A stretch of 64,000 nt of DNA from Candidatus Heimdallarchaeum aukensis (lineage in GTDB: Archaea > Asgardarchaeota > Heimdallarchaeia > Heimdallarchaeales > Heimdallarchaeaceae): the NCBI GenBank assembly GCA_021513695.1, contig CP084166.1, forward strand, positions 224,001 to 288,000. Reading direction: 5' to 3'. Position numbers and translations under genes: made by a program. Below, piece after piece: positions 33,989 to 56,113 of this stretch. A model generated the notes under the pieces. It had not been told where the DNA came from. It made no database searches and saw nothing but the letters and a program-made list of their open reading frames with translations. Positions within the stretch are counted from its first letter, which is position 1; the number at the start of each line of letters is the position of its first letter.

Positions 33989-35443
33989 CTACTGGGGCTG
34001 CAACCAATGGCTGAGCCCTCGGCAAACAGTGAAATGGGAAGAACTGAACCTTTGACCAGTGAGGTAATCAGTGATAGTTGTTCCTCGAGGACGAAAAAGA
34101 GCACCAAGGAACTTACGAGCGATATTCATTGCTCCTGTGAGGTCAGAGTGGAAAGTGTAATTGCAAGAGGGGCAATGGACTAAACCTCTAACAGGACGGA
34201 CAACTTTCCTTCCACAACGAGTACAGTGAGAGGATGTCCCTCTTTCCTCTACGGTTAATATTCGATGAGGGTCAAAACCTCTTAATATCAATGCTCGACG
34301 GAGAAGAGTAAGAACTAGAGAAAAGTTCCACTGATGAAGTTTCCTGCGAAACTTACGCGCACTGTTCCCTTTTCCTTTATCTTTTCTCACATTTTTGGGG
34401 TAACCTACGACGACGAAAAGGTCATACCTTCGAGCATAGGTCTCTATCGTCTGCACAACCTCACTTATAAATTGGTGAATATAGGACAGTTTAACGTTTC
34501 TATATCTTCTTCGGAGAAGACTAAGAAAACGATAAACTTGGTGTTTTTTACCCGACTGGTCGTTTAAAGCTGCTTTCCTCTGAAGACGGGAAAGTTTGAG
34601 TTTATATCTATGATTGATTTTATTCCATTGTTTGGTATACCAGAATTTTATTTCTTCACTTGTTAATTTCTTTTTAGGGGTTAGTAACACTCCTGCAGCA
34701 GGAATGTTTATCCCTAGATCTATTCCCAGCACAGCTGGAGGAAGAGAAGAAGAACTTTTTTTTTTAGGAGGATAAAAAGAAGGAGGAGGAAGAACTCTTA
34801 GTTGGAAATACACCCACCACTCATGTGTAGAACGTTTATATCTTAGTTCTAAACTTTTTATTCGTCCTTTCTTTAATTCCTTCTGGTGGAAAGTGCTCAT
34901 CTCTAAAGGCAACCATAACTTCTGATGATATGGGGTATTTCTTTTCCACGTATCTAACGAGTCTCTTATCCCCACCCACCAACGAGCGAGAGTGTTATTC
35001 TTCTCTTTAGGTAAATGGACGAGAACGAACCTCTTTGCATTAATTAGTTGTCTTCTTGCTCTCTTTATTGGAGGACGAGTATTATTAGGTCTATACCCTT
35101 GTTCATATAATTGTACGGCTATATCTCTACACTCTTGAAATTCATTGTGGGAACAATAAGGGAACATTTTCTTCAGATCGTGAGGGACATTCTTTCTTCT
35201 CTCTTCTTCTTTAACTTTTGAAGTAGTTAGCGTCAACTCATCTAGTTTTCCTCTATGCACTCTTATTTTCCCTTTTTTAGTTTTAGTACATATTTTTCTT
35301 CTGTTGTGGTGTATAATTCTCACATACTTTTCTATTATCCTCGTATCTCTTCCCGTTATTCTCCTTAACCTTTCCTTCTTCCTCGTCGTCAATACCTCCT
35401 TCTTTATTCTCACTTTCAAGGTTTTGACGACGTCCTTCACCAT
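33989..35443 (-). CDS. tnpB: TnpB (OrfB) RuvC-like RNA-guided nuclease of IS200/IS605 family
   Basis: 484 aa. 'VLGIDLGINIPAAG' (RuvC-I Asp), 'RRYDLFVVVGYPKNVRKDK', Zn ribbon 'CTRCGRK...HCPSCNYTFHSD', and RuvC-III 'SDLTGAMNIARK'. Confidence 0.85.
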   Translation of the reverse strand: MVKDVVKTLKVRIKKEVLTTRKKERLRRITGRDTRIIEKYVRIIHHNRRKICTKTKKGKIRVHRGKLDELTLTTSKVKEEERRKNVPHDLKKMFPYCSHNEFQECRDIAVQLYEQGYRPNNTRPPIKRARRQLINAKRFVLVHLPKEKNNTLARWWVGIRDSLDTWKRNTPYHQKLWLPLEMSTFHQKELKKGRIKSLELRYKRSTHEWWVYFQLRVLPPPSFYPPKKKSSSSLPPAVLGIDLGINIPAAGVLLTPKKKLTSEEIKFWYTKQWNKINHRYKLKLSRLQRKAALNDQSGKKHQVYRFLSLLRRRYRNVKLSYIHQFISEVVQTIETYARRYDLFVVVGYPKNVRKDKGKGNSARKFRRKLHQWNFSLVLTLLRRALILRGFDPHRILTVEERGTSSHCTRCGRKVVRPVRGLVHCPSCNYTFHSDLTGAMNIARKFLGALFRPRGTTITDYLTGQRFSSSHFTVCRGLSHWLQPQ

Positions 35444-37788: not shown

Positions 37789-38799
37789 TGTTTACTCTAT
37801 CCACGTTGGTAACAAATAAATAGAAAGTGGGTTACGAGGGTAAATGATGTATTATGAACAAACCCAAACGTAACCTAGAGAGACTAAGAAAGATTGTGGT
37901 TAAAAAAGCTTTGGAAGGAGAGAAGATAAAAGAGGTAGCTCACAGGTTTATGGTGAGTAGGAAGTTTGTTTACAAGTGGTTGAAGAGGTTCAGAGAGAAC
38001 CCTGAAGGAGAATGGTGGAAGAATAGATCATCTAGACCTAAAACTATACACAGGAAAGTGGATGAGGAGTTAAGAGAGAAGATAAGGGAGTTAAGAGTAA
38101 AGCAAGGAATGAACGTGGAGAAGATAGTTTATCTGTTGAAGAAAGAAGGAAGAGCATTATCGCGAAACACAGTAGTTAAAGTAATAGGAGAGTTAGGTCT
38201 TCCTCTGTGGAGTAATAGAAAAAAGAGAAACAGAACTCAATACAAGAGTTTTGAACGCTCTAGCCCTAACGAACTCTGGCAGATAGATGTGAAAGGACCA
38301 TTCTGGATAGAAGAACAAGGACAACACCTTTATCTCATAACCTTGATAGACGACCACTCACGATTCTGTCTGGGAGCTAAACTCCACCCTTTTGCACCGA
38401 AAAAAGAGCAGATAATAAGTTTGTTAGAAGGAGCAATAGAAAAATATGGACACCCCGAGTCTATCCTCACGGACAATGGAGCACTCTTCTACTCCGTTAG
38501 AGGAGGAACAAGTACCTTCTCCCGTTGGTGTCAAACAGAAGGAATAAAACACATCAGATCTAGAGTTTTTCACCCCGAAACATGCGGAAAAGTAGAAAGA
38601 CTACATGGAACCATCATCCGTGAGATGAAAAGACTAGGACTAACCTACTGTAACTCCGACCTCTCCTTCTACCGCTCTTACTACAATTTTAGCCGTCCTC
38701 ACCAGTCTCTTAACCTCCTTACCCCTGGAGAAAAATTTATGAATCACCCCTACGTTTCTCTAGTGCCCAAAAGTGTAACCCAGGTCTATTGAGTGAACA
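37789..38799 (+). mobile_element. IS481-family-like insertion sequence (single DDE transposase, 25-bp imperfect terminal IRs, 15-bp TSD)
   Basis: IRL 37789-37813 'TGTTTACTCTATCCACGTTGGTAAC' versus revcomp of 38775-38799 'TGTTCACTCAATAGACCTGGGTTAC' (18/25 match, both start TGTT). The transposase stop lies inside the IRR. Flanked by an identical 15-bp direct repeat. Confidence 0.7.
37854..38792 (+). CDS. DDE transposase with rve (integrase core) domain and N-terminal HTH, IS481-like
   Basis: 312 aa. N-terminal HTH ('VAHRFMVSRKFVYKWLKRF'). DDE triad candidates 'WQIDVKG', 'ILTDNGALF' and 'GKVERLHGT'. Confidence 0.85.
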   Translation: MNKPKRNLERLRKIVVKKALEGEKIKEVAHRFMVSRKFVYKWLKRFRENPEGEWWKNRSSRPKTIHRKVDEELREKIRELRVKQGMNVEKIVYLLKKEGRALSRNTVVKVIGELGLPLWSNRKKRNRTQYKSFERSSPNELWQIDVKGPFWIEEQGQHLYLITLIDDHSRFCLGAKLHPFAPKKEQIISLLEGAIEKYGHPESILTDNGALFYSVRGGTSTFSRWCQTEGIKHIRSRVFHPETCGKVERLHGTIIREMKRLGLTYCNSDLSFYRSYYNFSRPHQSLNLLTPGEKFMNHPYVSLVPKSVTQVY

Positions 38800-39410: not shown

Positions 39411-41219
39411 ATGACAGATAATGGATATATCACTGGTTATGACAGAAAAAATAGAGAAAAATTTCCTATTTTCTTCCAAATTTTACTTTCTGAATGTTTT
39501 AAAGAAAATAATAATTCACTCCTTATTCTACCTGAAAATTTTATGGTAAATAGATTTGTTGAATATCTTTCCTTATTTCTTAGAACAAAAAACATTCAAA
39601 AAACTGCCTTTATTTTATCAGAACAAGGTGAAAAGATAAAATTTAACAATTTATTAACAGAAGAGAAACTCCCTTTTATATCTAGCACTTTAAATGTTGA
39701 AAGAAGAAAGATAAAGTATCAAACTAGTGATATTTTCTTTGTTACAGCTAAAATATTGAGAAACGATCTTTTAAGAGAAGTAATAGAAGCACACGAAATT
39801 GAATTGGCAATTTTTTTGCACGCTGATAAATCCAAAGAAGAAAATGTCTATTCTAACTTAGTACAGATTTTAAGTTCAAATTCAAAAATTAAGTTTGTTG
39901 GAATATCAAAACCTATTTTTAAAGAAAAACAAGAACTAATTTCTGTAATTGAAGCTCTAATGATAACAAATATATTCTACAAGTCATCGTATAGTTCTAT
40001 TATCCAAAGTTGTTTATATGAAAAGTCAAATAAGAAAATAGTTGTTCCTTTTACACAAGAGTTAAATCAAATCAAAGTTAACTTAAGAACTTTGGAAGGA
40101 AAAGTTAATTCAGTTTTAAGGAAGATGGGGATAAAAAATCCTTATTATTTGAGAAGAAATTTTAACAAGGAAATTCAAAATTTAAGAGATAAAAACTTTA
40201 ATGAGTCGACTGTTGAACAAATAATTAATCTTGGTATAGAAAGTATTTTTCTACAATCACTAATTGAAACTTTAGAATCTTCAAGTGTTCCTTTATGTTT
40301 AAAACTAATAGAAAACAACCTAGAAAAAATCTCTCACTACTCTTTCTCATCTTCACTGTTTGAAATATATACAGAACTTAAAGAATTGAAAGATGAAAAA
40401 CACCCGAAGATGGTAATTCTGGTTGAAGAAATATCCAAGGCTTTGAATACTCCTGTAAATAACTCTAATAAAGAAAAACCAACAGTTCTTGTATATTCTA
40501 GTCGCAGAGCAGTACTGCACGAGATAGCAGAAATTTTAATTAAGAAAGAAATAGAAAATTTTGTTATTTTGTCCACGCAGATGAAAAAGCAATTAGAAGA
40601 GTTAGAAAGATTCGATAAGAAGGAGTTTCAAATCGTTTTAGCATCTAAAAATATACCTCTAAATACAGATTTTACATTTTTGTATTCTCTCCCAAAGCAA
40701 AAAACTTTGTTTCGTGAACTAATTCAAAGACCTAATAGTAAGTGTATTATCACTCATAGGTCTATTGAAGAAAAAATATTCTATAAATGGAATGAGAGAA
40801 AAAATGGACAACTAATTAGAGAACTAGTTTCTGATAAGCAAGTAAAAGAAGCTTTGTTGTTCAATCAGCAACAGTTTTTTAATAAAAAGATGATGCAAAT
40901 GATTAATCCAAAAACCAAAGCTCTGATGACATTAAATAGATTTTTTGAGAAAAATAAGAAACAAAAAAAAGATTTAGAAAAAAGAGAATTGAAAGATAAT
41001 ATCTCTGAAAGTAGAGCACTTGATTTTTCCCTTATTCGCTTTCTTTCAGGGTGTTCTGAAGAAGAAGCACTGTTATTAACAGAAATAATTAATTTCTCAC
41101 AAATAAATGATTATGAAAAGTTAACTGTTAATGATTTAATTCCATCCTTTTCTGAAAATAGAGCCAGAGAGATTATTACCAAAATAAAGAATAGATCAAA
41201 GTTAATTTCAAAATTTTAA
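39411..41219 (+). CDS. Degenerate SF2-helicase-like protein (helicase_C-like C-terminal domain, catalytic motifs eroded)
   Basis: 602 aa. C-terminal 'KPTVLVYSSRRAVLHEIAEIL...FQIVLASKNIPLNTDFTFLYSLPKQ...ELIQRPNSK' parallels helicase motifs IV-VI ('vlVF...; vLvATdvaarGlD; QriGRtGR') with the key residues replaced. No intact GxGKT or DExH. Confidence 0.4.
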   Translation: MTDNGYITGYDRKNREKFPIFFQILLSECFKENNNSLLILPENFMVNRFVEYLSLFLRTKNIQKTAFILSEQGEKIKFNNLLTEEKLPFISSTLNVERRKIKYQTSDIFFVTAKILRNDLLREVIEAHEIELAIFLHADKSKEENVYSNLVQILSSNSKIKFVGISKPIFKEKQELISVIEALMITNIFYKSSYSSIIQSCLYEKSNKKIVVPFTQELNQIKVNLRTLEGKVNSVLRKMGIKNPYYLRRNFNKEIQNLRDKNFNESTVEQIINLGIESIFLQSLIETLESSSVPLCLKLIENNLEKISHYSFSSSLFEIYTELKELKDEKHPKMVILVEEISKALNTPVNNSNKEKPTVLVYSSRRAVLHEIAEILIKKEIENFVILSTQMKKQLEELERFDKKEFQIVLASKNIPLNTDFTFLYSLPKQKTLFRELIQRPNSKCIITHRSIEEKIFYKWNERKNGQLIRELVSDKQVKEALLFNQQQFFNKKMMQMINPKTKALMTLNRFFEKNKKQKKDLEKRELKDNISESRALDFSLIRFLSGCSEEEALLLTEIINFSQINDYEKLTVNDLIPSFSENRAREIITKIKNRSKLISKF

Positions 41220-41479: not shown

Positions 41480-41577
41480 CTGAAAGACTAATTCAGAATT
41501 TTGTTTATAAACTTAGGATTATTTACAAAAATTTCCCCCTTTTTAAATAAATGAGTCAATTACTTTTTTAGATTGAA

Positions 41578-42669
41578 ATGACAACAGTTGAAGAGAAAGC
41601 AAAAATAGAAACGAGTACTAATCAATTGATGGAGTTTTTAGAAGAAGTTTCAGGTCTTTCTGCAGCACAAAAAAAGCGAGTTTACAAGACTCTCGTTGAT
41701 TTTGGGATAACTCACCCTTTAGCTTTTAAAAATCGAACAGTTAAAGAACTTACAAGAATAGATGGAATAAGTGAAAATGTAGCAGAAAAAATAGTTGAAC
41801 ACGCTAATCCTTCAAAAAAAGGTGAACTACTATTCAAGTCATTAGCTGAAGTAAAGAAAGAAGAAGATTCAACTATTATGATAAGTACTGGTTCAAAAAG
41901 ATTAGATGAATTACTAGGTGGAGGAATAAGTTTAGGAACTCTAGTAGAATTTTATGGTTCTCCCCAAAGTGGAAAAACCCAATTGTGTTATACAATTGCA
42001 GCAAATACTTTATTGGAAATTGGAGGAGTATTATGGTTAGATACAGAAGGAAGTTTTAGACCTTCAAGATTAGAACAAATATTATTTTATCTTGAAGAAA
42101 AAAAGAAAGAAAAAATAGATGAAAAGCAAAAAGAGAAAATAAATAGCCAATTTAATGTAGCTACAGTCAGAACTCTTGCACAATTAGAACTAGCTCTACA
42201 ACAAGTAGAAAAAGTAATCACTGCTTATGATGTGAAATTGTTAGTTGTAGATAGTCTAATGGATATTTTTAGAGCAGAGTATGGAGGACTAGGAGAATTG
42301 GCTGAAAGACAAAAACATCTAAATGTGGTTGTACACAAAATGATGAAACTAGCTGACGCATATAACATAGCTGTCGTATATACAAATCAAGTCATGGCTA
42401 ATCCAGATCCTTTTGCTACTGCTTTAGATAAAGTTCAGCCTGTAGGAGGTTTCGTTTTAGGTCATGCTAGTGATATACGCATCTGGTTACGAAGAGCCAC
42501 TTCAGCAACAAAAAAGAAATATGACGCTCCAAATGCAAGAAGGGCAATGATTACAGATTGTGGGTGGTTACCTATGGAAGAAACTATTTTCTCTATCGGA
42601 GCTTTTGGAATATGTGATGTTGAAGAAGAGAGTGAAATGAAAGAAGAAGCAAATATTGAAGAGAAATAA
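41578..42669 (+). CDS. radA: RadA/Rad51-family recombinase, divergent (N-terminal HhH domain plus RecA core with insertion and acidic C-terminal tail)
   Basis: 363 aa. HhH region 'KTLVDFGITHPLAFKNRTVKELTRIDGISENVAEKIVEHA'. Walker A 'FYGSPQSGKTQLC' (canonical archaeal RadA is GEFGSGKTQ). Walker B 'LLVVDSLM'. Lys/Glu-rich insert 'LEEKKKEKIDEKQKEKINSQ'. Acidic tail 'DVEEESEMKEEANIEEK'. Confidence 0.65.
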   Translation: MTTVEEKAKIETSTNQLMEFLEEVSGLSAAQKKRVYKTLVDFGITHPLAFKNRTVKELTRIDGISENVAEKIVEHANPSKKGELLFKSLAEVKKEEDSTIMISTGSKRLDELLGGGISLGTLVEFYGSPQSGKTQLCYTIAANTLLEIGGVLWLDTEGSFRPSRLEQILFYLEEKKKEKIDEKQKEKINSQFNVATVRTLAQLELALQQVEKVITAYDVKLLVVDSLMDIFRAEYGGLGELAERQKHLNVVVHKMMKLADAYNIAVVYTNQVMANPDPFATALDKVQPVGGFVLGHASDIRIWLRRATSATKKKYDAPNARRAMITDCGWLPMEETIFSIGAFGICDVEEESEMKEEANIEEK

Positions 42670-46425: not shown

Positions 46426-49400
46426 ATGAAAAAGAAGTTGAAATTCATGTTAATTATGTTTTTAGTTTTGCCATTATCATTAAATCATGTCTTAGCAGAA
46501 AATGTTATTGAACTATTAAATCTTCAATCAAGATATCCTATTAATTATAAAAGTAAAGATTCAGATGTTATTTCTATAAAATCAACAATTGGAAAAGACA
46601 ATGAATTATCTATCAGAAAAAAAGAGAATAGTGTAATAAGTTCGTTAAATAATGAGTTTGTTAGTCCTTATTCTCCTAAATTGAGTTATGGATTGTACAA
46701 AACTTTTACACAGATTTCATCTGTTCCTGAATCAATAAATAAAGGAGAAAATATTAGTGTAACTTCTTCAACAAAATTTGATTTAGGAACTTTATATCCT
46801 GTAGATCAAGGAACAATTTATTGGTATGATTTGAATTGTCTAGAAGAAGATCTGGGAGTAAGTACGAGTTTTGTAGAATCAAGTAAAATAGCTATCAGTT
46901 TTAATTTAACTTCTCCCTCTAACTATATGGGTGTTTATTTTGACATCTCAAATTTAGCAGATTTAACAGGAGATGTGTTAAACGTTTATCTTACTTCAGA
47001 TCTAGAAAACTATTCTACTGATTACCTGGCGAAAAGTGAACTGTCTTTTAAGTATTACAATTCTCAAGCTGGTGTATCTGGATTTTATGCTATTTATGAT
47101 AGTCCAACAACAACTCAAGTTGATAATTCCTTATTAGCAGGTGAAACATATTTTGTGGTTTTGGAAGGAGACAGTTCTTTGAGAATCGAAACATCACTTG
47201 ATTCAGAAGAATATGATGACAATAAAGTATATGTTTTTTCAGGGGGTTCTTGGGGTTTAGAACAAGGAATAGATGCAAAAATAAGAATATTCTCTGGTCA
47301 AAAAATTACTGAAAAAACTATTTCTTCTTCTAGCAATGGAGAAACTACAATAACTTATCAGTCATCTCAATCCTCTTTTAAATATCATACTTTAGTCGCT
47401 TTCTACTATGATACTTCTGGAATGTATGATCTTTCAAGTGATTCTTCAGATTTCAAAGTAATTGACAGCACAATTCCAGAGTATATTTCATTAAATAGTC
47501 CTTCTATAGCTGAATATACAGATTACATTGAGTTGAAAGCTTATGTTGAAAACTACTATCACCAAGAACTAGAAAATCAAACTGTATATTTCTATTACTC
47601 TGAAGATAACTCTTCATGGATAGAAATTGGTTCTTCCATTTCAGATAGTACAGGAGTGGCAAAGATAAATTTCTTAATCTCAAAAGCTTCTGGATACTAC
47701 TACTTTAAAGCAGTAACACAAAATTTAGAAACTTTTAACTATACTGAAACTACCAAAGAACAAGTAATTATTGAAACTCCTCTAGTTCAAACAATTTATG
47801 GAAATCTGAGTGGATCTGATACTTTAGAGACTTTTAGTTTGAAAGTACAAGTACATGATAATGATAATACTCCAATCTCTGGAGTAATGGTTTTCTTTTA
47901 TGTAGAAGGAAAAACTTTTGTTTACGACATTACTGATGAAAACGGTTACGCAAAAACGCATAGCTATTCAGTTAATTGGGCTGTTGGATACTATAACAAC
48001 AAATATTGGGTAAATATCGACTTAGATACTAATTTGTATTCATTTCCTGATACTCAATATGGTGACATTGAAGTACAAAAATCAAATTTACAAATATACA
48101 GTTTAGATAATAATACAATCAATGTCTGGATAAACGACTCCTATTTCTCTTTTGAAGTTAAAGACCCAGAAAATGATTCTGTAGCAAATATAGAATTTGA
48201 ATCAATTTTATATGATCCTTATTTTGATGAATATGTATCTTTAGGTTACGCATTTACAAATGATACAGGATATGGTAAAATTACCCTCCCAGCTTACTTT
48301 AAAGAACCAGGAAAGTATACTTTAATAATTCGCATTTCTGACCCTAACTACAATGTTATTGAAGAAAATCTGCAACTAGAATTATATGCTTCATCAAGTA
48401 TAATAGAGTGTAATTTACCTTCTTCAATCGAATATACATACAATTCTTCTTTACTAATTGAAGGGAATGTGACTGATATAAATGGTAAACCTCTAGCTAA
48501 CGCAAACATAACTGTAAAAATTACTGACCCAAGTATATCTAGTAATTGGGTATTATACATTTATACTACAGAGACAAATTCGCAAGGATACTTTTCTATG
48601 AATTTAACTCTAGATGTTGAAGTTGATCAGGAACTGGTTATAACTATTCATGTAGAAAATTATTATGGCTCTAATGGTGAGATTTCTTATTATGCTACAT
48701 CTTCACAAGAATACAATCTTCTATGTGTTAGGCGAGATGCTGAAATTTTAAATGTTCAAGACTTTATAACCCAGAATCAAGAAACAATAATAATATCTGG
48801 TTTGCTAATTGATTCTGGAGAACCTTTAAGTGGAAAAGAGATAAGAATAATTATTCAAGAAGAGAACTACTATATTATTACAGATACAGAAGGATGTTTT
48901 TACCTTAGTTACCAAGTAAATTTTGGTACAAATGTTAACTTTACAGTTGTTTTTGGGAGTGATAATCATTATAATGTTGTCAATTTAACAAGAACAATAT
49001 TTTCTTCTCCAATAAGTTTAAACATCGAAATTGAAGATGTTATTTGCAATCCAAACACTTTAATCTATTTATCAAGCTATGTCTATTCTGATTTAGGAAC
49101 AACACCTGAAAATGTGCAAGTAGAATTTTATTGGTATGATGAACAATGGATACTTTTAGGAATAGTTTTTACAAATGAATCAGGTATAGCTCAACTGAAT
49201 ATTACAAGTCCTGATAAGGTCGGAGAATTTAGCTGGAAAGCAATAGTTGTTCAAACTGAAGATTGGTTAGAATCATCTTCTAATTTGAAATTATTCCAAA
49301 TAGGTTATCACACCTCAATAAGTATGGAAGCACCAATACAAGGACAATATGGAAATGAAATTAGAATTAATTTCACAGTTACAGATCAATTTGGACAACC

Positions 49401-52400
49401 AATAGGTGTTAACATAAACTTCTATATTGATGGACTGTTGTTAAGTGAAATATCTACAGATTCAAATGGTTTTGGAAGCTATTATTGGACAATTGATTTA
49501 AGTTCTGGTAATTATTCCTTTAAAGCTGTGGTTTTAAATCAATCTATCTATATTTCTTCTTCTTGTATCCAGGAATTTGAAATAATAAAGGCTGACGTAT
49601 ATATTCAAAGTTCAGATTTGATTATGACCTGCAATGAAACAAAAACAATGGAATTTTATGTTTATTCTATTAATGGAGAGATAACAAATCTATCGTTAAA
49701 CATATCATTGTCTAACGGTTATTCAACAGTTTTAACCAGCAATAGCTCAGGTTATGCTGTTTGGAGTATTCCTATTCTCCCATCTGGTGTATACACAGTA
49801 AACGTTACCTTTAATGGAGATGATAAATATAATACGATATCTGTTAGCTATTCACTTGTTGTTAATAAGATTGAGACAAATGTTATTCTTTTTGCAGAAG
49901 ATAGTTTTTATTCTGAAAACTATAAGATCTGTGGATATGTTGAAAATTCAGAAGGACAAGGAATTGAGGGTATTGCTGTAAATCTATTAATTAATGAAAC
50001 ATTTACTCTTTCAACAACTACATTATCTGATGGAAGTTATTTATTCCTCGTTCTTCTACTTCCTGATTATTATAATATCGAGGTACAAATAGAAGGGAAT
50101 GATTATATTAATCCAAGTTCAAGAAGCACAAGTGTTTATATCTATAAACTTTCGTCTTCTTTGAACGGAAAAATTGAGTTTATAAATGACACAATGATAA
50201 TAACGGCTAATCTAACTAGTTCATCAGAACCTGTAGAAGGACAAATAATCTATTTCTATGTGAATAATTCACTAGTAGGGACTAATCTTACTGATGTATA
50301 TGGTCAAGCAAGAGTTGAATTGTTAAATATTACTCCTAGCTTATATTCTGTAAACATTGAGTATAAAGGTAATGAAATATATCAAGAATCTTCAACAAAT
50401 ATTCAAGCAGAGAAAGATAAAGAACAGACAGAAATCAAAGTTAGTGTTGAAGAAGGTGTTTATTCTCAATCTCCAACCAATATTTTTATTTCATTAAGTT
50501 CTAATGGAGAAGCTTTATCTAACCAATATATTAAGCTGAATTTTGATAACGATAGTTATTTAGCTTTAACCAATTCTTCAGGTGTAGCAGTTATTGCTTT
50601 AGATATAAACTACCTGCCTGGAAATTATAACGGAGAGATAGTCTATGAAGGAAGTGAAATATACTCATCAAATGCTGTTTCAGTGAATATAACTATTTAC
50701 AAGTCAAACTGTGTTTTCAGTTCTCTTGAAATTCAATACTTAGAAACTCTGACAATCCTAAATGGAAAAATAGAAGGTAAATATCCATTAGAAAATGAAA
50801 GCATATTCATTGAAATAAATGGGAGTAGTTACAATGTTCTTCAAACTGATGAAAATGGAGTTTTTTCTTCAGTTTTAATTTTAAATCCTGGTGAATATAC
50901 ATTAACTGCTATATTCTTAGGAAATGATTGCTATTTACCTGTAAATCAGTCAATTTACTTTTCTATCTCTAAAATAGCTTCAGGGTTGGAAATATATGAC
51001 TTTTCTAAAACTCTGGAATATGGAAAAGAAGAACTTGTAGAGTTCAAACTTTATTCATACAACAATGAATCAGGAATTGAAGGACAAATCTCTGTTATGA
51101 TTAATGGTTCATTAATAACTATTGTAGAAACAAGTAGCGATGGATTAGGTTCATTTCTACTTCCTAATGATTTATCAGTAGGGACTTATATTCTCCAGAT
51201 TTCTTTTGCTGGAGATGATCTATATTACTCTACTTCAGAATCAATAACAATCAAAGTGAAATATAAACTTGAAATTTCAATTACTGAATCAGACTTGAAG
51301 AACTATGGAATAGAAGCTTCTATCAGCGGTATTCTAAATATTCCTCTAGAAGGAATAAGTCTAACGCTAAATATTACTAACCTAAATTATTCAAATGTCG
51401 TAAAAACCAACAGCGATGGAGAATTCATTTTTGTTATTCCAAGCAATATTCCATCAGGAAATATGACAATTGTATTGTTTATTGAAAAAACTGAAACTAT
51501 TTTAGATACAAACTATTCGTTTGAGACAACAAGGGGTTATGGAGAATATTCTGTTTTATTTACTAACCTTGAATTTGATATAAATAGCACAGAGAGTATC
51601 ACTGGTAAAATATCTTATAATGGTGATTACAGTTCTTCAGGAAAGATATATATCAAAATAAACGATACTATTGTTCTTACACAGGAATTCAACGAACTAG
51701 GTGAATTTAACATAGCTCATTCAATATTTGATCTACTTCCTGGAGATTACAACATTAAATTCTATTTTGAGTTTGATAACGAGAATTTTAGAAGCCAAGA
51801 ATTGACAATTAAAATAGAAATATTAAAACTTGAATTAAATCTGGAAGTCACTACTAGCAGTTCTGAAATTCAAGTCTATGATGTTTTATCATTAAATATA
51901 AGCGCAAATTATCCATTAGATAAGGATAGAATAAAACTATTAGTTAACAATACTGAATATTCGAATAATGAGTTTGAAATTATAGAATATGAGAATTATC
52001 TTACCGCAAACATAGTAATTGAATTAGCAGGTAATATAAACATAACTGTGATATTTGAAGAAAATGACTTCTTTTATAGAAGCGAAAAAAGTTTAATTAT
52101 TCAAGTTCTTAAAAGAGATGTTGGCTTTGAATATAATCGAGATACATTTTATTACAATTCCAGCATTCCATTGATAATAGAACTTATTTCATTTAAGAAT
52201 GAGACAGATATTGAATTTACAGTTCTTCTGGGAGAAAGAGCCGAAACAGGAGTAAAGACAATAAGTTTCATACTCACTAATATTTTCATTGGAGACTATC
52301 AAGTGTATATGTTGTTTGAAGGAAATTCTTATTACAACTCTTTTAACTCTTCATTTGTTATCCATATTATTCCTCAACCAACAAAGATAGTTTTCAAAGA

Positions 52401-52848: not shown

Positions 52849-54264
52849 ATGAACAACAAAGAGAAAAATCAAAAACTATCCTTTTTAAAAAATCAATATA
52901 GTAGACTACTCGATAAATTATCAAAGTCAATTGTAGTAAAAATCAGAGAACAAGGAAAACTCCCTTTCTTTTTAGTAGTTTTAATTTGGATAGTTTTCTG
53001 GGGAAGCTCCTTTTACTTTATTACAGTCTTTATGCCTGTTAATTTGTTGTGGTTAAGAGTATTCTTACCTGTATTTATTTCTCTTATTGTTGTTAATGCT
53101 TCAACAGAATTAGGAAAAAAGGTAGTGGGTTATCATAATGAAAAAGAAGAGAAAGTTGAGAAAGAAAGTTCTTCTTCTCTCTTAAGTGAAGAAAAGGACA
53201 TTTCTACAAAAGAAGGTTATTCTTTGAAATCAACTTTCATTCTTCGTGATAAGAAAGGGAAAAAAATTTTTCTTATTAATAAAGGCAAAATTATTCCTGT
53301 TTTTTTGGTTAGCATATTGAGTACAGGAAACAAAGAAAAAGGATACACATTTTCTTCTTTGTTGAATTATCCTTTAAGAAATGAAATGAAAGAAATAGAA
53401 TTTTCAGTTTTAGACACAGATAAAGGAGAATATTTGCTTTTTCTAGGAAAAGAATACAAAACTAAAAACAAAAATTATACAGAATTATTAAAGGAAAATG
53501 AACAGTTTTTCTCAAAAATAGAGATTATAGTTGCTGAATTAAAGAGAGACAATAATTTAGAATTAGAAGCTGTTGAAGATTCAATACTTAATGAGCTTTT
53601 TCCTCTTTATTCTGAAGTATTATGTTGTAAAAATGAAGACACTAACAAAAAGGAACAAAAAATAGAAGAAAAAAATCATCTACAGTTAAAGAGTGAAAAT
53701 AATAATCTAAATAATGCAAATAATGGAAAAGAATATAATCAAAATGGTGAGAGCAGTAATAGATTCAGACCTTTTTCAGTTAAAACTGAACTTACACCAT
53801 ACCAATTAACGAAGGTTGCAGAAAAAAAAGAACTACTATTATCTGAACTCACTTATTCTTTTGATAATTTCATTGATATGTCTAAAGTATTTTATAAAAA
53901 AGCTCTTGAACATCAATTGAACGCAAAGTTTCCTATCTCCGAGGATAATTTTCTTAAACTTATACAACTCTTTGTAGAAAAGAATAAGTATGAATTCTTT
54001 TATCCAAGTTTCTTTAAACTAGAGAAGTATGAATCTTTCAAAGTCTTTGAAACTCCTAGTTCAGAAGAGATAGAAGAGTTTTCTGAAGAACTAGTAAAAG
54101 AATGTATGTTTACTAATTTAGATACTGAAGTAAAGAAAGAGTTGCATTCCTTCCTTACTCAAAAAATCAAAAATAGGAAGCATAGGCAAGAAGTAAAACC
54201 TGTAGGAATTAAAGTATCTTCTACAATTCCTAGGCCATCAGTAAAATCTTTATCAGAATCTTGA
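52849..54264 (+). CDS. Membrane-anchored hypothetical protein (2 N-terminal TM helices plus ~380-aa Lys/Glu-rich cytoplasmic region)
   Basis: 471 aa, ORF track. TM segments 'LPFFLVVLIWIVFWGSSFYFITVF' and 'LRVFLPVFISLIVVNA'. Confidence 0.5.
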   Translation: MNNKEKNQKLSFLKNQYSRLLDKLSKSIVVKIREQGKLPFFLVVLIWIVFWGSSFYFITVFMPVNLLWLRVFLPVFISLIVVNASTELGKKVVGYHNEKEEKVEKESSSSLLSEEKDISTKEGYSLKSTFILRDKKGKKIFLINKGKIIPVFLVSILSTGNKEKGYTFSSLLNYPLRNEMKEIEFSVLDTDKGEYLLFLGKEYKTKNKNYTELLKENEQFFSKIEIIVAELKRDNNLELEAVEDSILNELFPLYSEVLCCKNEDTNKKEQKIEEKNHLQLKSENNNLNNANNGKEYNQNGESSNRFRPFSVKTELTPYQLTKVAEKKELLLSELTYSFDNFIDMSKVFYKKALEHQLNAKFPISEDNFLKLIQLFVEKNKYEFFYPSFFKLEKYESFKVFETPSSEEIEEFSEELVKECMFTNLDTEVKKELHSFLTQKIKNRKHRQEVKPVGIKVSSTIPRPSVKSLSES

Positions 54265-54273
54265 GGAGATTGA

Positions 54274-54909
54274 ATGATTGAAATAGTTTTTTTGAATTTC
54301 TTGAATCTCTTTGTTAAAATATGGCTATCAGCTCTTTTAATTAATATTCTACTTTCCACTCTCTTAAAACCAATTTATAAACATCTGTTGGCAATAGGCT
54401 TGGTTTTCAATTTACCAATTAAGCGACTATTTTATTGGATCTATAGAGTACCCATTGAGAATATAGATTGGGAAAACGGTCTAATTAGAACAAAGAAAGT
54501 GAATAATATGGATTGTCTAGCAACTACAGTTGTGATCATGCCTGTATTTATTTTAAGCTACTTATCTAGTTGGTTATTCTATTTTGCAGGTAAAATCTAT
54601 CCCTATGGTTACAAGTTCTTTGGAATTGTTCTTTATATTGTCGCTTCGTTAAGTCTAGCTTTCAGTATTCCTAACTTTGAGGAATTGAAATTGTTTAATA
54701 ACATTAATCTTCATTCCTCTTTGGTCTATTTACTAAAATGGGTATTTGTAGTTATAGTTGTCTTTTCAATAGTTGAGTTTACTTCTATCTCTCTTGATGT
54801 ATTAACTACAGTGATATTAGTTCTTTTAGCTACTCCATTTTATAGTTATAAAGAAGATGAAGAAAATGTAGAGAATATTAAGAAAATTATTGGTGATCCA
54901 TTTGCATAA
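54274..54909 (+). CDS. Membrane protein (5-6 TM), hypothetical
   Basis: 211 aa. Its 3' end overlaps the start of the downstream ATPase gene by 20 nt, which suggests translational coupling. Confidence 0.5.
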   Translation: MIEIVFLNFLNLFVKIWLSALLINILLSTLLKPIYKHLLAIGLVFNLPIKRLFYWIYRVPIENIDWENGLIRTKKVNNMDCLATTVVIMPVFILSYLSSWLFYFAGKIYPYGYKFFGIVLYIVASLSLAFSIPNFEELKLFNNINLHSSLVYLLKWVFVVIVVFSIVEFTSISLDVLTTVILVLLATPFYSYKEDEENVENIKKIIGDPFA

Positions 54910-55525
54910 ATGGACTCTTTCCAAAAATGAGCGAATGATACATCTTTATGGTCCCCCAGCAAGTGGTAAGACTACTTTAGCAATTCAATTATCTAGAAAA
55001 GTCTTTCCTCGCTCAACAATTTATTTCATTACTTCGCATAGAAACGCAATTACAAAAAGAGCAAAACAGATACTAAACAAGAATTATCTTAAAGAATTTT
55101 ATTTAATTAAAGTTTCTAGTTTAGATGATTTATTTGAAAAAATTCAATCTATTAATAGCTTAGGAAAAACAATAGGATTGATTGTAATAGATTATATCTC
55201 TGATTTTGTTAGAGGGAAGCTATACAAGGAAGAAGTAAAAAACAAGGTAAGGAAGATATTAGAAAAACTTTTTATTTTCTCCTCACAAAAAGATTGTTTA
55301 GTTGTGATAGTCAATAGTTTTTCAATAAAAAATGAAGCTCCTTTGAATTCTTTAGTTGAAAGTTTTTGTGACATGTCAGTTTATTTGTCGATTAAAGATG
55401 ACAAATACAATTTGGAATCAAATGGTAAAAATATAAAAAGAACTTTTGTAGTCGATGAAAAAATTATTTCCAGCTTCGTTATTGATGAAAAAGGAATTAA
55501 AGATTTAATTATTGTGTCTGAATAA
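54890..55525 (+). CDS. RadB/KaiC-like RecA-superfamily P-loop ATPase
   Basis: 211 aa. Walker A 'LYGPPASGKTTLAIQL' (archaeal RadB has YGPxxSGKTTLALQ). Walker B 'GLIVIDYISDF'. C-terminal 'EKGIKDL' resembles the RadB C terminus. The true start may be the internal Met (MIHLYG). Confidence 0.65.
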   Translation: MVIHLHKWTLSKNERMIHLYGPPASGKTTLAIQLSRKVFPRSTIYFITSHRNAITKRAKQILNKNYLKEFYLIKVSSLDDLFEKIQSINSLGKTIGLIVIDYISDFVRGKLYKEEVKNKVRKILEKLFIFSSQKDCLVVIVNSFSIKNEAPLNSLVESFCDMSVYLSIKDDKYNLESNGKNIKRTFVVDEKIISSFVIDEKGIKDLIIVSE

Positions 55526-55585
55526 ATTTTTTTCCTTTAAATAGTATTCTTTAGATTAACTAATAAAAAAGGAAGTCAATGGTTA

Positions 55586-56056
55586 ATGTATTCAGAGCAA
55601 GAAGTGATAAGAAAAATAACAGAAACTTGGAAATTTGAAAATAAAGTATGCGTGAAAGAACTACAAATTCCTTTAGTAGGCAAAAATATCAATTATCCTT
55701 TTTTAGAAAATAGAAAAAGCATTCGTATAGATCTTGCTTGCTATGATATTGTATCTGATAAAATTATTTTTGTTGAAGCAGAAAATGGTCTGTGGCTTCC
55801 TCATCCCCAAATTTATAGACCTTTTTGTGATATGTTATATGTTGCTACTCCCTATGATGATAGTTACTATAGAGAAAAGCAACTTGAGTGGGCAAAAAAT
55901 GAAGGAATAGGAGTAATTGAAGTTCTTTATGATGGTTACATTATAGAAACATTAAAACCTGTAGTTTTTCCTGATTCGATGGATATCTCTTTAAGAGAAG
56001 AAGTTCTAGCACATTTTGTTAAGAAACTCAAAAAAAACGAAAAAATAGCTGATTGA
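55586..56056 (+). CDS. Small hypothetical protein, possible restriction-endonuclease-like (PD-(D/E)xK-like) fold
   Basis: 156 aa. 'RIDLACYDIVSDKIIFVEAENG' loosely follows a D...(D/E)xK/Hjc-like core (compare Hjc 'VDLVA...LCIEVK') but lacks the Lys. Low-confidence functional call. Confidence 0.35.
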   Translation: MYSEQEVIRKITETWKFENKVCVKELQIPLVGKNINYPFLENRKSIRIDLACYDIVSDKIIFVEAENGLWLPHPQIYRPFCDMLYVATPYDDSYYREKQLEWAKNEGIGVIEVLYDGYIIETLKPVVFPDSMDISLREEVLAHFVKKLKKNEKIAD

Positions 56057-56113
56057 TTTTTTATTACTAATTTTTTCTCTCTTTTAAAAACAATTTTATT
56101 TATAATTTAGCTG

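What the first reader, a model, noticed from the sequence alone, without database searches (positions are those of the whole stretch)
41578..42669. Divergent RadA/Rad51-like recombinase with non-canonical Walker A, Lys/Glu insertion and acidic tail, located in the accessory island
The HhH N-terminal domain and RecA core are present. The P-loop reads GSPQSGKT rather than the near-invariant archaeal GEFGSGKT. A 'LEEKKKEKIDEKQKEKI' insert sits in the core, and the protein ends in an acidic tail. It is surrounded by hypothetical and IS-related genes rather than a housekeeping context.

It may be an accessory RadA paralog or a mobile-element-associated recombinase rather than the primary recombinase.
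Basis: partly seen in the sequence, partly recalled or inferred. Interest (0 to 1): 0.5.

Follow-up and report, generated by a model that had tools for sequence, protein, structure and literature searches.

The report
Divergent RadA-family recombinase of Heimdallarchaea
This gene encodes an intact but unusually divergent relative of the DNA-recombination enzyme RadA/Rad51; it is a conserved chromosomal core gene of one family of Asgard archaea, not a mobile or island gene, and it usually sits beside a repair-type helicase and a second RecA-like ATPase.

Summary
The ORF at 41578-42669 (+, 363 aa) is real. It is identical to UJG41066.1 of Ca. Heimdallarchaeum aukensis. It has the full two-domain RadA/Rad51 fold, and the ATPase residues and L2 loop are intact.

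It scores below the NCBIfam RadA, Rad51, Dmc1 and RadB cut-offs. The whole clade shares an odd P-loop (G[AS]PQSGK[TS]), Leu in place of the L1 arginine, FxSL in place of FxxA, a 9-residue hairpin insert and a C-terminal acidic extension.

The clade occurs in 22 further Heimdallarchaeota species genomes. It belongs to a wider, deep-branching RadA-like subfamily (100/100 NJ bootstraps).

It is not island or mobile-element cargo:
- dN/dS against H. endolithica is 0.025.
- The two nearby IS copies are strain-specific.
- IMG/VR, phage and plasmid collections hold no close relatives.

In most family members it follows a conserved block that includes a RadB-like ATPase and a Ski2/Hel308-like helicase.

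Best reading: a specialised RadA paralogue working with these partners. I could neither show nor exclude a canonical RadA in the same genome. Published trees (Matsuo 2025) report two RadA clades in Heimdallarchaea.

The parts
41578..42669 (+). RadA/Rad51-family gene (363 aa), divergent Heimdallarchaeaceae clade; identical to UJG41066.1 of Ca. Heimdallarchaeum aukensis
41540..41551 (+). TATA-box-like element TTTTTAAATAAA, 27-38 nt upstream of the ATG. It suggests the gene has its own promoter and a very short leader (inference from sequence only).
41632..41820 (+). N-terminal helix-hairpin-helix domain (about residues 19-81), 4 residues longer than in canonical RadA
41833..41844 (+). Polymerisation motif position, F86-K-S-L89. 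Phe is kept. Ala is replaced by Leu; F86, S88 and L89 are invariant in the clade.
41956..41979 (+). Walker A, GSPQSGKT (residues 127-134). Lys133 and Thr134 are kept; the E-F-(G/R) of canonical RadA/Rad51 is replaced by S-P-Q.
42091..42141 (+). Lys/Glu-rich linker LEEKKKEKIDEKQKEKI (residues 172-188). It is a variable surface helix-loop, and its composition is specific to the genus.
42268..42312 (+). L1 region, FRAEYGGLGELAERQ. Leu238 replaces the Arg (human RAD51 R235) found in 231 of 231 other sequences matched. Tyr235 and Arg244 are kept.
42385..42450 (+). L2 loop, NQVMANPDPFATALDKVQPVGG. It is 2 residues longer than canonical and modelled as disordered, as in RadA/Rad51. Gln271 is kept.
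42496..42537 (+). Clade-specific hairpin insert region, ATSATKKKYDAPNA (9 residues longer than canonical RadA), followed by the DCGWLP signature that holds the ATP-cap Asp327 and Pro332
42616..42666 (+). C-terminal helix and acidic tail (residues 347-363). It is a short version of the roughly 40-residue clade-wide extension, which in most members ends in TEFAxLE.
54890..55525 (+). RadB-like RecA-fold ATPase of the conserved linked block
59282..61393 (+). Ski2/Hel308-like SF2 helicase of the conserved linked block. It lies directly upstream of the RadA-like gene in most Heimdallarchaeaceae, and a homologue lies 1.3 kb from the distant subfamily member P0469.
52849..63276 (+). Conserved seven-gene block: 471 aa, 211 aa, RadB-like, 156 aa, 1051 aa, helicase, 614 aa. 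In other Heimdallarchaeaceae it precedes the RadA-like gene; in Heimdallarchaeum it lies downstream of the giant gene.
39411..41219 (+). Upstream 602-aa FANCM/Hef-like protein. Its helicase motifs appear degenerate. It was found only at the Heimdallarchaeum loci.

Best explanation
The gene encodes a chromosomal, vertically inherited and strongly constrained member of a divergent subfamily of RadA/Rad51-type recombinases found in Asgard archaea. The subfamily signature is L1 Arg->Leu, HASDIR and DC(G/A)WLP.

I propose that it is a specialised RadA paralogue rather than a standard RadA. It would be an ATP-dependent, ssDNA-binding protein that assembles through an altered, private Phe-x-Ser-Leu interface. 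It would act in a dedicated recombination or repair pathway together with two proteins it is genomically linked to in Heimdallarchaeaceae: a Ski2/Hel308-like helicase and a RadB-like ATPase.

Shown: fold, conserved catalytic residues, clade signatures, distribution, purifying selection and synteny.

Inferred: ATPase and DNA-binding activity, self-assembly, partnership with the helicase and the RadB-like protein, and the existence of a separate canonical RadA in the same genome.
For: Fold and catalytic site:
- Pfam Rad51 E=1.9e-51.
- AF2 pLDDT 89.7 with a full-length match to RAD51, Dmc1 and RadA filament protomers.
- K133, T134, E157, D225, Q271, H296, D327 and P332 align with the human RAD51 catalytic and ATP-cap residues.

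Not a standard RadA:
- It falls below all NCBIfam equivalog cut-offs, while other Asgard RadAs score 431-457.
- Its mean NJ distance to every other RadA/Rad51 group is 1.3-1.4, against 0.65-1.0 among those groups.
- The clade-invariant changes are listed.

Wider subfamily:
- An exhaustive HMMER search found eight further 50%-identity representatives with the same signatures.
- The extended group is monophyletic in 100 of 100 bootstraps.
- P0469 keeps GEYRTGKT and FxxA, so it is an intermediate form.
- The flank of P0465 carries an Arf/Ras-like GTPase and MutS/MutL, which looks Asgard-like.

Core gene:
- 23 Heimdallarchaeota species genomes carry it.
- dN/dS is 0.025, and it has the highest identity of its neighbourhood.

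Linkage:
- In at least 15 loci, part or all of the order ...RadB-like-156-1051-helicase-(0-8 kb)-RadA-like-giant gene is seen.
- Helicase: ASCC3 1.7e-49, Hjm 2.6e-42.
- RadB-like: profile against RadB 4.6e-7 and Rad57 8e-4.
- A homologous helicase (29% identity over 629 aa, E=1e-59) lies 1.3 kb from the distant member P0469.

Literature:
- HELQ binds RAD51 and the RAD51-paralogue complex BCDX2 (PMC13623763).
Against: - I never found a canonical RadA from any assembly that carries this gene. No hit labelled Heimdallarchaeaceae appears among 2x120 canonical RadA hits or in the 19 RadA clusters whose members I inspected. Look-ups of candidates led to other assemblies.
- Extreme purifying selection and near-universal single-copy presence would fit a sole, essential recombinase equally well.
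- I could not verify that the published paralogue clade is this clade. That study removed long-branch sequences.
- The helicase link is interrupted by up to 8 kb of variable genes in several genomes. It is absent around P0464, P0465 and P0028.
- In this window the helicase block lies about 10 kb away, beyond a secreted giant protein.
- There are no biochemical data.
Confidence: 0.5

Rival explanations
1. It is the only, and therefore primary, RadA of Heimdallarchaeaceae. On this view it is a fast-diverged orthologue that co-evolved with equally diverged partners (the RadB-like ATPase and the Hel308-like helicase), and the family has lost the canonical Asgard RadA.
For: - It occurs essentially as a single copy in 23 species genomes.
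- dN/dS is 0.025, and it is the best-conserved gene of the locus.
- It has the complete catalytic machinery and the two-domain architecture.
- UniProt and JGI name it RadA.
- No canonical RadA labelled Heimdallarchaeaceae appears in the hit lists or clusters inspected, although 7 of 31 clade proteins carry that label.
- The short-type RadA groups found are labelled Njordarchaeales or come from loci with other G+C contents.
Against: - Canonical Asgard RadA is 72-92% identical across Loki, Thor, Odin, Hermod and Hod. A jump to about 35% identity in one family for a single-copy essential gene would be exceptional.
- The subfamily extends to other, more distant lineages, which is the pattern of an old paralogue.
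- The published tree reports both clades in the same Heimdallarchaea MAGs.
- The hit lists were capped at 120 of about 8000, so absence of a label is weak evidence.
Confidence: 0.3
2. It is a non-catalytic mediator, analogous to Rad55-Rad57, the RAD51 paralogues or RadB. It would cap, nucleate or stabilise filaments of a canonical RadA and would not perform strand exchange itself.
For: - It has lost the L1 arginine that is invariant in all other RadA, Rad51 and Dmc1 sequences examined.
- It has an altered polymerisation motif and P-loop surroundings.
- It has an acidic C-terminal tail, which AF2 leaves disordered in P0025.
- It is linked to a Hel308-like helicase. HELQ binds RAD51 paralogues in animals.
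Against: - Unlike RadB and most mediators, it keeps the N-terminal HhH domain, a full-length L2, Tyr235, Arg244 and the ATP cap.
- PDB matches to RAD51B, XRCC3 and RAD51D (1e-15 to 1e-17) are far weaker than to RAD51 and RadA (1e-42 to 1e-43).
- A hydrophobic residue at the L1 position is what bacterial RecA uses (Met164; my own knowledge), so Leu238 need not abolish pairing.
Confidence: 0.15
3. It is a recombinase carried by a mobile element or genomic island.
For: - An rve-family transposase (37854-38792) and a TnpB (33989-35443) lie 2.8-7.6 kb upstream.
- Many neighbours are hypothetical proteins.
- One relative (P0028) sits among toxin-antitoxin genes.
- TnpB and variable genes are inserted next to the gene in some MAGs.
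Against: - Both IS copies are absent from the syntenic H. endolithica locus.
- The window has no tRNA gene, and apart from that transposase no integrase-type gene was found among the neighbouring ORFs scanned; repeats bounding the gene were not searched for.
- G+C is uniform at about 29%.
- Synteny is conserved across the family.
- dN/dS is 0.025.
- There is no relative in IMG/VR. Phage hits are at most 29% identical and plasmid hits at most 33%, the latter being haloarchaeal radA.
Confidence: 0.03

Closest known systems
Archaeal RadA (e.g. Saccharolobus solfataricus RadA, PDB 2bke; NCBIfam NF003301 / TIGR02236)
   Same: - Same two-domain architecture (HhH plus RecA core).
- Same Walker A Lys/Thr, Walker B, catalytic Glu, Gln sensor, His and ATP cap.
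- RadA-type L2 with Pro-Asp.
- It is the best PDB sequence hit, 2.8e-43.
   Different: - Only 35-42% identical, and below both equivalog cut-offs.
- P-loop reads (A/S)PQS instead of E(F/Y)(G/R)(S/T).
- L1 Arg->Leu.
- FxxA->FxSL.
- +4, +2 and +9 residue insertions.
- A C-terminal acidic extension.
Canonical Asgard RadA (e.g. P0226, Hodarchaeota; about 415 aa)
   Same: Same family and the same host phylum. Both are RAD-alpha type.
   Different: - Canonical Asgard RadA has an N-terminal Zn-ribbon-like PYYCxECxRxHxKGKIY extension and GEFRTGKTQ.
- It is 72-92% conserved across Asgard classes and scores 457 bits on NF003301.
- The window protein lacks the extension and is 33-35% identical.
Eukaryotic RAD51 / DMC1
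   Same: - They are the best structural matches: TM 0.88-0.90 normalised to target, rmsd 2.5 A, to RAD51 filament protomers.
- PDB sequence E-values are about 1e-42.
   Different: - Scores 188 and 191 bits against cut-offs of 478 and 448.
- NJ grouping with eukaryotes (42-74%) is most likely long-branch attraction.
- The published analysis finds Rad51 and Dmc1 monophyletic outside all Asgard RadA paralogues.
Second RadA clade of Heimdallarchaea, Gerdarchaea and Njordarchaea reported by Matsuo et al. 2025 (PMC12722695)
   Same: - A RadA paralogue clade restricted to a subset of Asgard lineages, including Heimdallarchaeaceae MAGs.
- That clade is reported to be distinct from paralogues of the same MAGs.
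   Different: - I could not test identity of the two clades, because no accessions or sequences are held.
- That paper removed long-branch sequences.
- It gives no motif, structure or synteny description.
RadB, Rad55-Rad57 and RAD51 paralogues (BCDX2/CX3) with HELQ
   Same: A diverged RecA-fold paralogue genomically linked to a Ski2/Hel308-family helicase. This parallels the physical HELQ-BCDX2 interaction.
   Different: - It keeps the N-terminal domain and the DNA-binding loops.
- RadB model 110 bits against a cut-off of 172.
- PDB E-values to RAD51B, RAD51D and XRCC3 are 1e-15 to 1e-17.
- The true RadB-like protein of the locus is a different gene (54890-55525).

Membership tests
Rad51/RadA superfamily (Pfam PF08423; RAD-alpha type) | RecA-like ATPase core matching PF08423 above the gathering score | tested here: met
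   175.1 bits against a cut-off of 22, residues 98-347
Rad51/RadA superfamily (Pfam PF08423; RAD-alpha type) | N-terminal helix-hairpin-helix domain preceding the core | tested here: met
   HHH_5 is sub-threshold (24.8 vs 27). The AF2 model aligns over its full length (338-340 columns) to RAD51, Dmc1 and RadA.
Rad51/RadA superfamily (Pfam PF08423; RAD-alpha type) | Walker A Lys/Thr, Walker B Asp, catalytic Glu, Gln sensor, trans-acting His, ATP-cap Asp/Pro | tested here: met
   K133, T134, D225, E157, Q271, H296, D327 and P332 align with the human RAD51 residues
Rad51/RadA superfamily (Pfam PF08423; RAD-alpha type) | FxxA polymerisation motif | tested here: not met
   F86-K-S-L89. Phe is kept and Ala is replaced by Leu, invariantly in the clade.
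Rad51/RadA superfamily (Pfam PF08423; RAD-alpha type) | L1 loop arginine (human RAD51 R235) and L2 loop | tested here: inconclusive
   L2 is present, and Y235 and R244 are kept. The L1 Arg is Leu in 31 of 31 clade members against Arg in 231 of 231 others matched.
Rad51/RadA superfamily (Pfam PF08423; RAD-alpha type) | ATP-dependent ssDNA filament formation and strand exchange | not testable with these tools
   Needs biochemistry
Archaeal RadA equivalog (NCBIfam NF003301, TIGR02236) | Whole-protein score at or above the curated cut-off | tested here: not met
   230 vs 259 and 204.5 vs 361. Clade members P0025 and P0004 score 219-232. Other RadAs score 431-485.
Eukaryotic RAD51 / DMC1 equivalogs (TIGR02239, TIGR02238) | Score at or above the curated cut-off | tested here: not met
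   187.9 vs 478 and 191.4 vs 447.7
RadB (TIGR02237, NF006861) | Short core-only protein without an N-terminal domain; score at or above the cut-off | tested here: not met
   109.9 vs 172.4 and 97.5 vs 278. An N-terminal domain is present.
KaiC-like / aRadC archaeal RadA paralogues | KaiC-type ATPase domain without an HhH domain | tested here: not met
   Pfam KaiC ATPase 22.8 vs 26.6. NCBIfam KaiC models score 18-33 bits against cut-offs above 240.
Mobile-element or virus-encoded RadA-like recombinase | Location inside an element (integrase, att sites, variable presence) or close relatives in viral or plasmid collections | tested here: not met
   The IS copies are absent from PR6. IMG/VR holds no relative. 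Phage hits are at most 29% identical and plasmid hits at most 33%. The gene is present in 23 species genomes.
Divergent Asgard RadA-like subfamily (defined here: L1 Leu, HASDIR, DC[GA]WLP) | Signature motifs and monophyly with P0464, P0465, P0469, P0475, P0476, P0484, P0528 and P0554 | tested here: met
   Motifs. NJ bootstrap 100 of 100. NJ only; no ML tree could be run.
RadA paralogue clade of Matsuo et al. 2025 | Branches within the published 'green' clade | not testable with these tools
   Only the text and a genome list are held. No sequences or accessions are available.

The most novel reading that the evidence does not exclude
The protein belongs to a third, deep-branching lineage of two-domain (RAD-alpha) recombinases in Asgard archaea. 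This lineage would be distinct from both canonical RadA and Rad51/Dmc1. It would operate as a second, insulated recombination machine with its own Hel308/HELQ-like helicase and RadB-like mediator. That would be an archaeal division of labour between two recombinases, and a forerunner of the HELQ-RAD51-paralogue axis, in the closest known relatives of eukaryotes.
Probability: 0.15. Interest if true: 0.75.

Novelty: new variant of a known kind. Interest (0 to 1): 0.45.

Why it matters
Heimdallarchaeia are the closest known archaeal relatives of eukaryotes, and when recombinases duplicated is used to date the origin of meiotic sex. This subfamily is well conserved and motif-altered: it has a private polymerisation motif, a RecA-like hydrophobic L1 residue and an acidic tail. 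It is tied to a Ski2/Hel308-like helicase and a RadB-like ATPase.

If a canonical RadA coexists with it, Asgard archaea already ran two differentiated recombinase systems. If none coexists, an essential recombinase was remodelled wholesale together with its partners.

Either outcome is directly testable on two complete published genomes. The finding also flags an annotation inconsistency: PGAP calls the protein 'AAA family ATPase' and UniProt calls it 'RadA'.

Tried and rejected
1. Finding a canonical RadA in the same genome.
- I searched the protein database with two Asgard RadAs, P0044 and P0226.
- I looked up contigs for P0044, P0092, P0145, P0133, P0277 and P0253. None lay in an assembly that carries the divergent gene.
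- I ran tblastn of P0226 and P0044 against all 73 loci then held; inspection of the P0226 hits showed no canonical gene in any Heimdallarchaeota locus.
- I inspected the members of 19 RadA clusters and found no Heimdall label.
- I searched the supplements of Wu et al. 2022 for RadA, Rad51 and recombinase and got no hits.
- All caps are exhausted and the question stays open.

2. Guessing lineage from amino-acid composition was not discriminating.

3. L063 looked like a second RadA in MAG HM4_B41. It is a truncated 104-aa fragment of the same divergent clade.

4. Defence-system reading of the linked block. PADLOC gives only partial HamB-type helicase matches (116 bits) and weak mad8 P-loop matches, and no HamA. 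Rejected as unsupported.

5. Profile searches of the 1051-aa and 156-aa neighbours against the PDB gave nothing.

6. The idea that the C-terminal TEFAxLE motif docks on the core. AF2 leaves the tail disordered, with pLDDT below 50, so there is no support.

7. The 602-aa and 703-aa helicase-like proteins as paralogues of each other. They show no similarity.

8. Rfam and tRNA scans of the window were empty.

9. No ML tree software was available, so deep placement rests on NJ with a Kimura correction and is unresolved.
Full report
**1. What is at the coordinates**

The ORF at 41578-42669 (+) starts with ATG and encodes 363 aa. The product is identical to P0336, which is UJG41066.1 of Ca. Heimdallarchaeum aukensis, a complete 3.08-Mb genome. 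PGAP names it 'AAA family ATPase' and UniRef names it 'DNA repair and recombination protein RadA'. The sister genome, Ca. H. endolithica PR6 (CP084167.1), has a 98% identical orthologue at a syntenic locus.

The window is uniformly about 29% G+C. It has no tRNA or Rfam hits. It carries ordinary chromosomal genes: ribBA, an acyl-CoA synthetase, TldD/PmbA, an asparaginase and a GH38 mannosidase.

A TATA-like TTTTTAAATAAA lies 27-38 nt upstream of the ATG. This suggests the gene has its own promoter, but that is inference from sequence only.

**2. Checking the observation**

Pfam Rad51 matches residues 98-347 at E=1.9e-51. HHH_5 is just sub-threshold. An AlphaFold2 model built on 67 sequences is confident (pLDDT 89.7, pTM 0.89), and only the L2 loop is disordered. 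Foldseek aligns 338-340 columns to human RAD51, yeast Dmc1/Rad51 and RadA filament protomers, with TM 0.88-0.90 (normalised to target) and rmsd 2.5 A. So both the HhH domain and the core are present.

The P-loop GSPQSGKT is real and unusual. None of 303 other RadA-family sequences fetched has it, and all 31 clade members do. The acidic tail is real, with 9 acidic and 2 basic residues among the last 17.

The 'insert' is overstated. It is the variable helix-loop found in all RadAs. It is 4 residues longer in the clade, and in the genus it is 3 residues longer again and rich in Lys/Glu.

- a 6-residue deletion of the PEEYGGL loop
- L1 Arg->Leu, which is Leu in 31 of 31 clade members and Arg in 231 of 231 others matched
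- FxxA->FxSL
- a 2-residue longer L2
- a 9-residue hairpin insert followed by DCGWLP

**3. What kind of RadA it is**

The protein scores 230 and 204.5 bits on the two RadA equivalog models, whose cut-offs are 259 and 361. It scores 191 on Dmc1, 188 on Rad51 and 110 on RadB, all below cut-off. Two other clade members score 219-232 on the RadA model. Asgard RadAs (P0226, P0044, P0133) and a crenarchaeal RadA (P0033) score 431-485.

A database search found 31 clusters at 53-98% identity. Every source name they carry is either a Heimdallarchaeaceae/Heimdallarchaeota organism or the generic JGI name RadA. Identity then drops abruptly to at most 42% for ordinary RadAs. A scan of one genome per GTDB species found the gene in 23 Heimdallarchaeota genomes and nowhere else.

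Catalytic and ATP-cap residues all align with human RAD51: K133, T134, E157, D225, Q271, H296, D327 and P332. So do L1 Tyr235 and Arg244 and the RadA-type Pro-Asp of L2. The protein therefore looks like an active ATPase and DNA binder with a remodelled protomer interface and L1 tip. The L1 position is hydrophobic, as it is in bacterial RecA (Met164; my own knowledge).

**4. Phylogenetic position**

Only NJ with a Kimura correction and 100 bootstraps could be run, because no ML software was available.

The clade is monophyletic (100 of 100). Its mean distance to every other group is 1.3-1.4, while canonical Asgard RadA, other archaeal RadA and human RAD51/DMC1 are 0.65-1.0 apart from each other.

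An exhaustive HMMER search of 1.84 billion cluster representatives with the clade profile revealed relatives that the word-indexed search had missed. These are P0464, P0465, P0469, P0475, P0476, P0484, P0528 and P0554. They share L1 Leu, HASDIR and DC(G/A)WLP or DCGFLP. Together with the Heimdallarchaeaceae clade they form a group with 100 of 100 support. P0469 still has GEYRTGKT and FxxA, so it is an intermediate form. The Walker A and FxSL changes are therefore later acquisitions of the Heimdallarchaeaceae/P0464 branch.

Grouping of the subfamily with eukaryotes (42-74%) is probably long-branch attraction. PDB E-values to RAD51B, RAD51D and XRCC3 are only 1e-15 to 1e-17.

Matsuo et al. [quoted passage not shown] They find Rad51 and Dmc1 outside both. 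The subfamily found here is a plausible match. I could not verify this, and that study removed long branches.

**5. Context: not an island**

Between the two Heimdallarchaeum genomes the gene is 98% identical. Its neighbours are 72-95% identical. dS is 0.66, dN is 0.0165 and dN/dS is 0.025.

The TnpB (33989-35443) and the rve transposase (37854-38792) are absent from the PR6 locus. IMG/VR has no relative; its only hit is 27% identical. Phage hits are at most 29% identical. Plasmid hits are at most 33% identical and are haloarchaeal megaplasmid radA genes.

**6. Conserved linkage**

In at least 15 Heimdallarchaeaceae loci, part or all of the following order is seen, all on one strand:

[614 aa]-[471]-[211]-[RadB-like]-[156]-[1051]-[Ski2/Hel308-like helicase]-(0-8 kb variable)-[RadA-like]-[~2100-aa protein]

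The ~2100-aa protein has a signal peptide and Ig-like repeats, so it is secreted and probably only a neighbour.

In Heimdallarchaeum the seven-gene block has moved to 52849-63276. Three membrane or hypothetical genes separate the RadA-like gene from the giant gene.

What the neighbours are:
- The helicase matches ASCC3 (1.7e-49), Brr2, Hjm (2.6e-42) and Hel308. It scores far below the Hel308 equivalog cut-offs.
- The ATPase matches RadB (TIGR02237, 53.6 bits against a cut-off of 172). As a profile it matches RadB at 4.6e-7 and Rad57 at 8e-4.
- The variable gap holds beta-helix surface proteins, a TnpB, an LRR protein and a kinase-like gene.

A homologue of the same helicase (29% identity over 629 aa, E=1e-59) and an Exo5-like nuclease lie next to the distant subfamily member P0469. 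The loci of P0464, P0465 and P0028 lack the helicase.

HELQ/Hel308 is known to contact RAD51 and the RAD51-paralogue complex BCDX2 (PMC13623763). The linkage is therefore biologically sensible, but it is only genomic evidence.

**7. The open question**

I could not determine whether H. aukensis also has a canonical RadA.

Canonical Asgard RadA is about 415 aa, has an N-terminal Zn-ribbon-like motif and GEFRTGKTQ, and is 72-92% identical across classes. Short-type RadAs (GEYRTGKTQ) are labelled Njordarchaeales and sit in housekeeping contexts, next to ribosomal protein S30 and an AAA_18 kinase.

No such protein labelled Heimdallarchaeaceae appeared, and none of my look-ups landed in an assembly that carries the divergent gene. 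The lists are capped, so this is weak negative evidence.

The depth and breadth of the subfamily, together with the published statement, favour paralogy. The very strong constraint and universal presence would also fit a sole recombinase.

**8. Verdict**

This is a real, intact, strongly constrained, chromosomally core member of a divergent Asgard RadA-like subfamily. It is not standard RadA, RadB, Rad51 or Dmc1, and it is not mobile-element cargo.

Most likely (about 0.5) it is a specialised paralogue working with a linked Ski2/Hel308-like helicase and a RadB-like ATPase. The rivals are:
- the sole, remodelled recombinase of the family (about 0.3)
- a non-catalytic mediator (about 0.15)
- island or mobile-element cargo (about 0.03)

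The gene is already public, and the existence of a second RadA clade is published. The motif signature, the wider subfamily and the synteny appear not to be described in the literature I could search.

Noticed in passing
window 52849-63276: A seven-gene, same-strand block: 471 aa, 211 aa, RadB-like ATPase, 156 aa, 1051 aa, Ski2/Hel308-like helicase, 614 aa. It is conserved at 27-45% identity across Heimdallarchaeaceae. Several members have no Pfam or PDB match. It looks like an uncharacterised DNA-transaction module.
   Followed up: partly
window 56114-59269: A 1051-aa conserved protein with no PDB profile hit. There is a weak PADLOC mad8 match on residues 458-558. The order of its conserved motifs (LLAGDKKT..., IYIDDAELFF, STPYPS, NRIIGNLKS) reminds me of HerA/FtsK-type ATPases with a degenerate P-loop. 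It also has a C-terminal winged-helix-like segment. This is my reading only.
   Followed up: partly
window 55586-56056: A 156-aa protein, 72% mean column identity across 9 genomes. It has invariant RIDLA...FVEAENG residues that could form a PD-(D/E)xK-type nuclease motif. No database hit.
   Followed up: partly
window 39411-41219: A 602-aa protein weakly similar to FANCM/Hef helicase (PDB 9el5 6.9e-6; NF010337 4.8e-15). The Walker A and DEAH positions look degenerate (LPENFMV, LHAD), so it is possibly a pseudo-helicase. It was seen only next to the RadA-like gene in the Heimdallarchaeum genus.
   Followed up: partly
window 46426-52791: A 2121-aa protein with a signal peptide and many Ig-like, CarboxypepD_reg and MG domains. 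Its orthologue directly follows the RadA-like gene in almost every other Heimdallarchaeaceae genome, an odd but very stable adjacency.
   Followed up: partly
window 33989-35443 (-) and 37854-38792 (+): A TnpB/Cas12f-like gene and an rve-family (IS481-like) transposase. Both are absent from the syntenic locus of H. endolithica PR6, so they are recent strain-specific insertions.
   Followed up: yes
proteins P0226, P0167, P0314 and others: Canonical Asgard RadA carries a conserved N-terminal Zn-ribbon-like motif, PYYCxECxRxHxKGKIY, followed by an acidic linker. It is 72-92% identical across Loki, Thor, Odin, Hermod and Hodarchaeota.
   Followed up: no
L063 10229-10543: A truncated 104-aa fragment copy of the divergent RadA-like gene on a second contig of MAG HM4_B41. 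It is a pseudogene or an assembly or binning duplicate.
   Followed up: partly
C termini of P0006-P0027 (alignment A1, columns 401-441): Most clade members end in a conserved helix (EEAKHRELALEIG), an acidic run and the motif (V/I)(Q/K)TEFAxLE. This motif is missing in the Heimdallarchaeum genus. AF2 leaves it disordered, so it may be a short linear interaction motif.
   Followed up: partly
L006 6001-7047 (P0092): Another RadA with an aberrant P-loop (GKMASGKT), encoded directly downstream of an RPA-like gene on an 853-kb contig of unknown lineage.
   Followed up: no
L077 3001-6719: In a Njordarchaeales-type genome, an ordinary RadA (P0133) lies next to a convergent 881-aa Hel308-type helicase. 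RadA-helicase adjacency is therefore not unique to the divergent subfamily.
   Followed up: no
L010, L012, L013, L017, L018, L020, L024 (between the helicase and the RadA-like gene): A variable insertion hot-spot of 0-8 kb. It carries beta-helix/NosD-like surface proteins, a TnpB, an LRR protein, a prenyltransferase-like gene and a histidine-kinase-like gene.
   Followed up: partly
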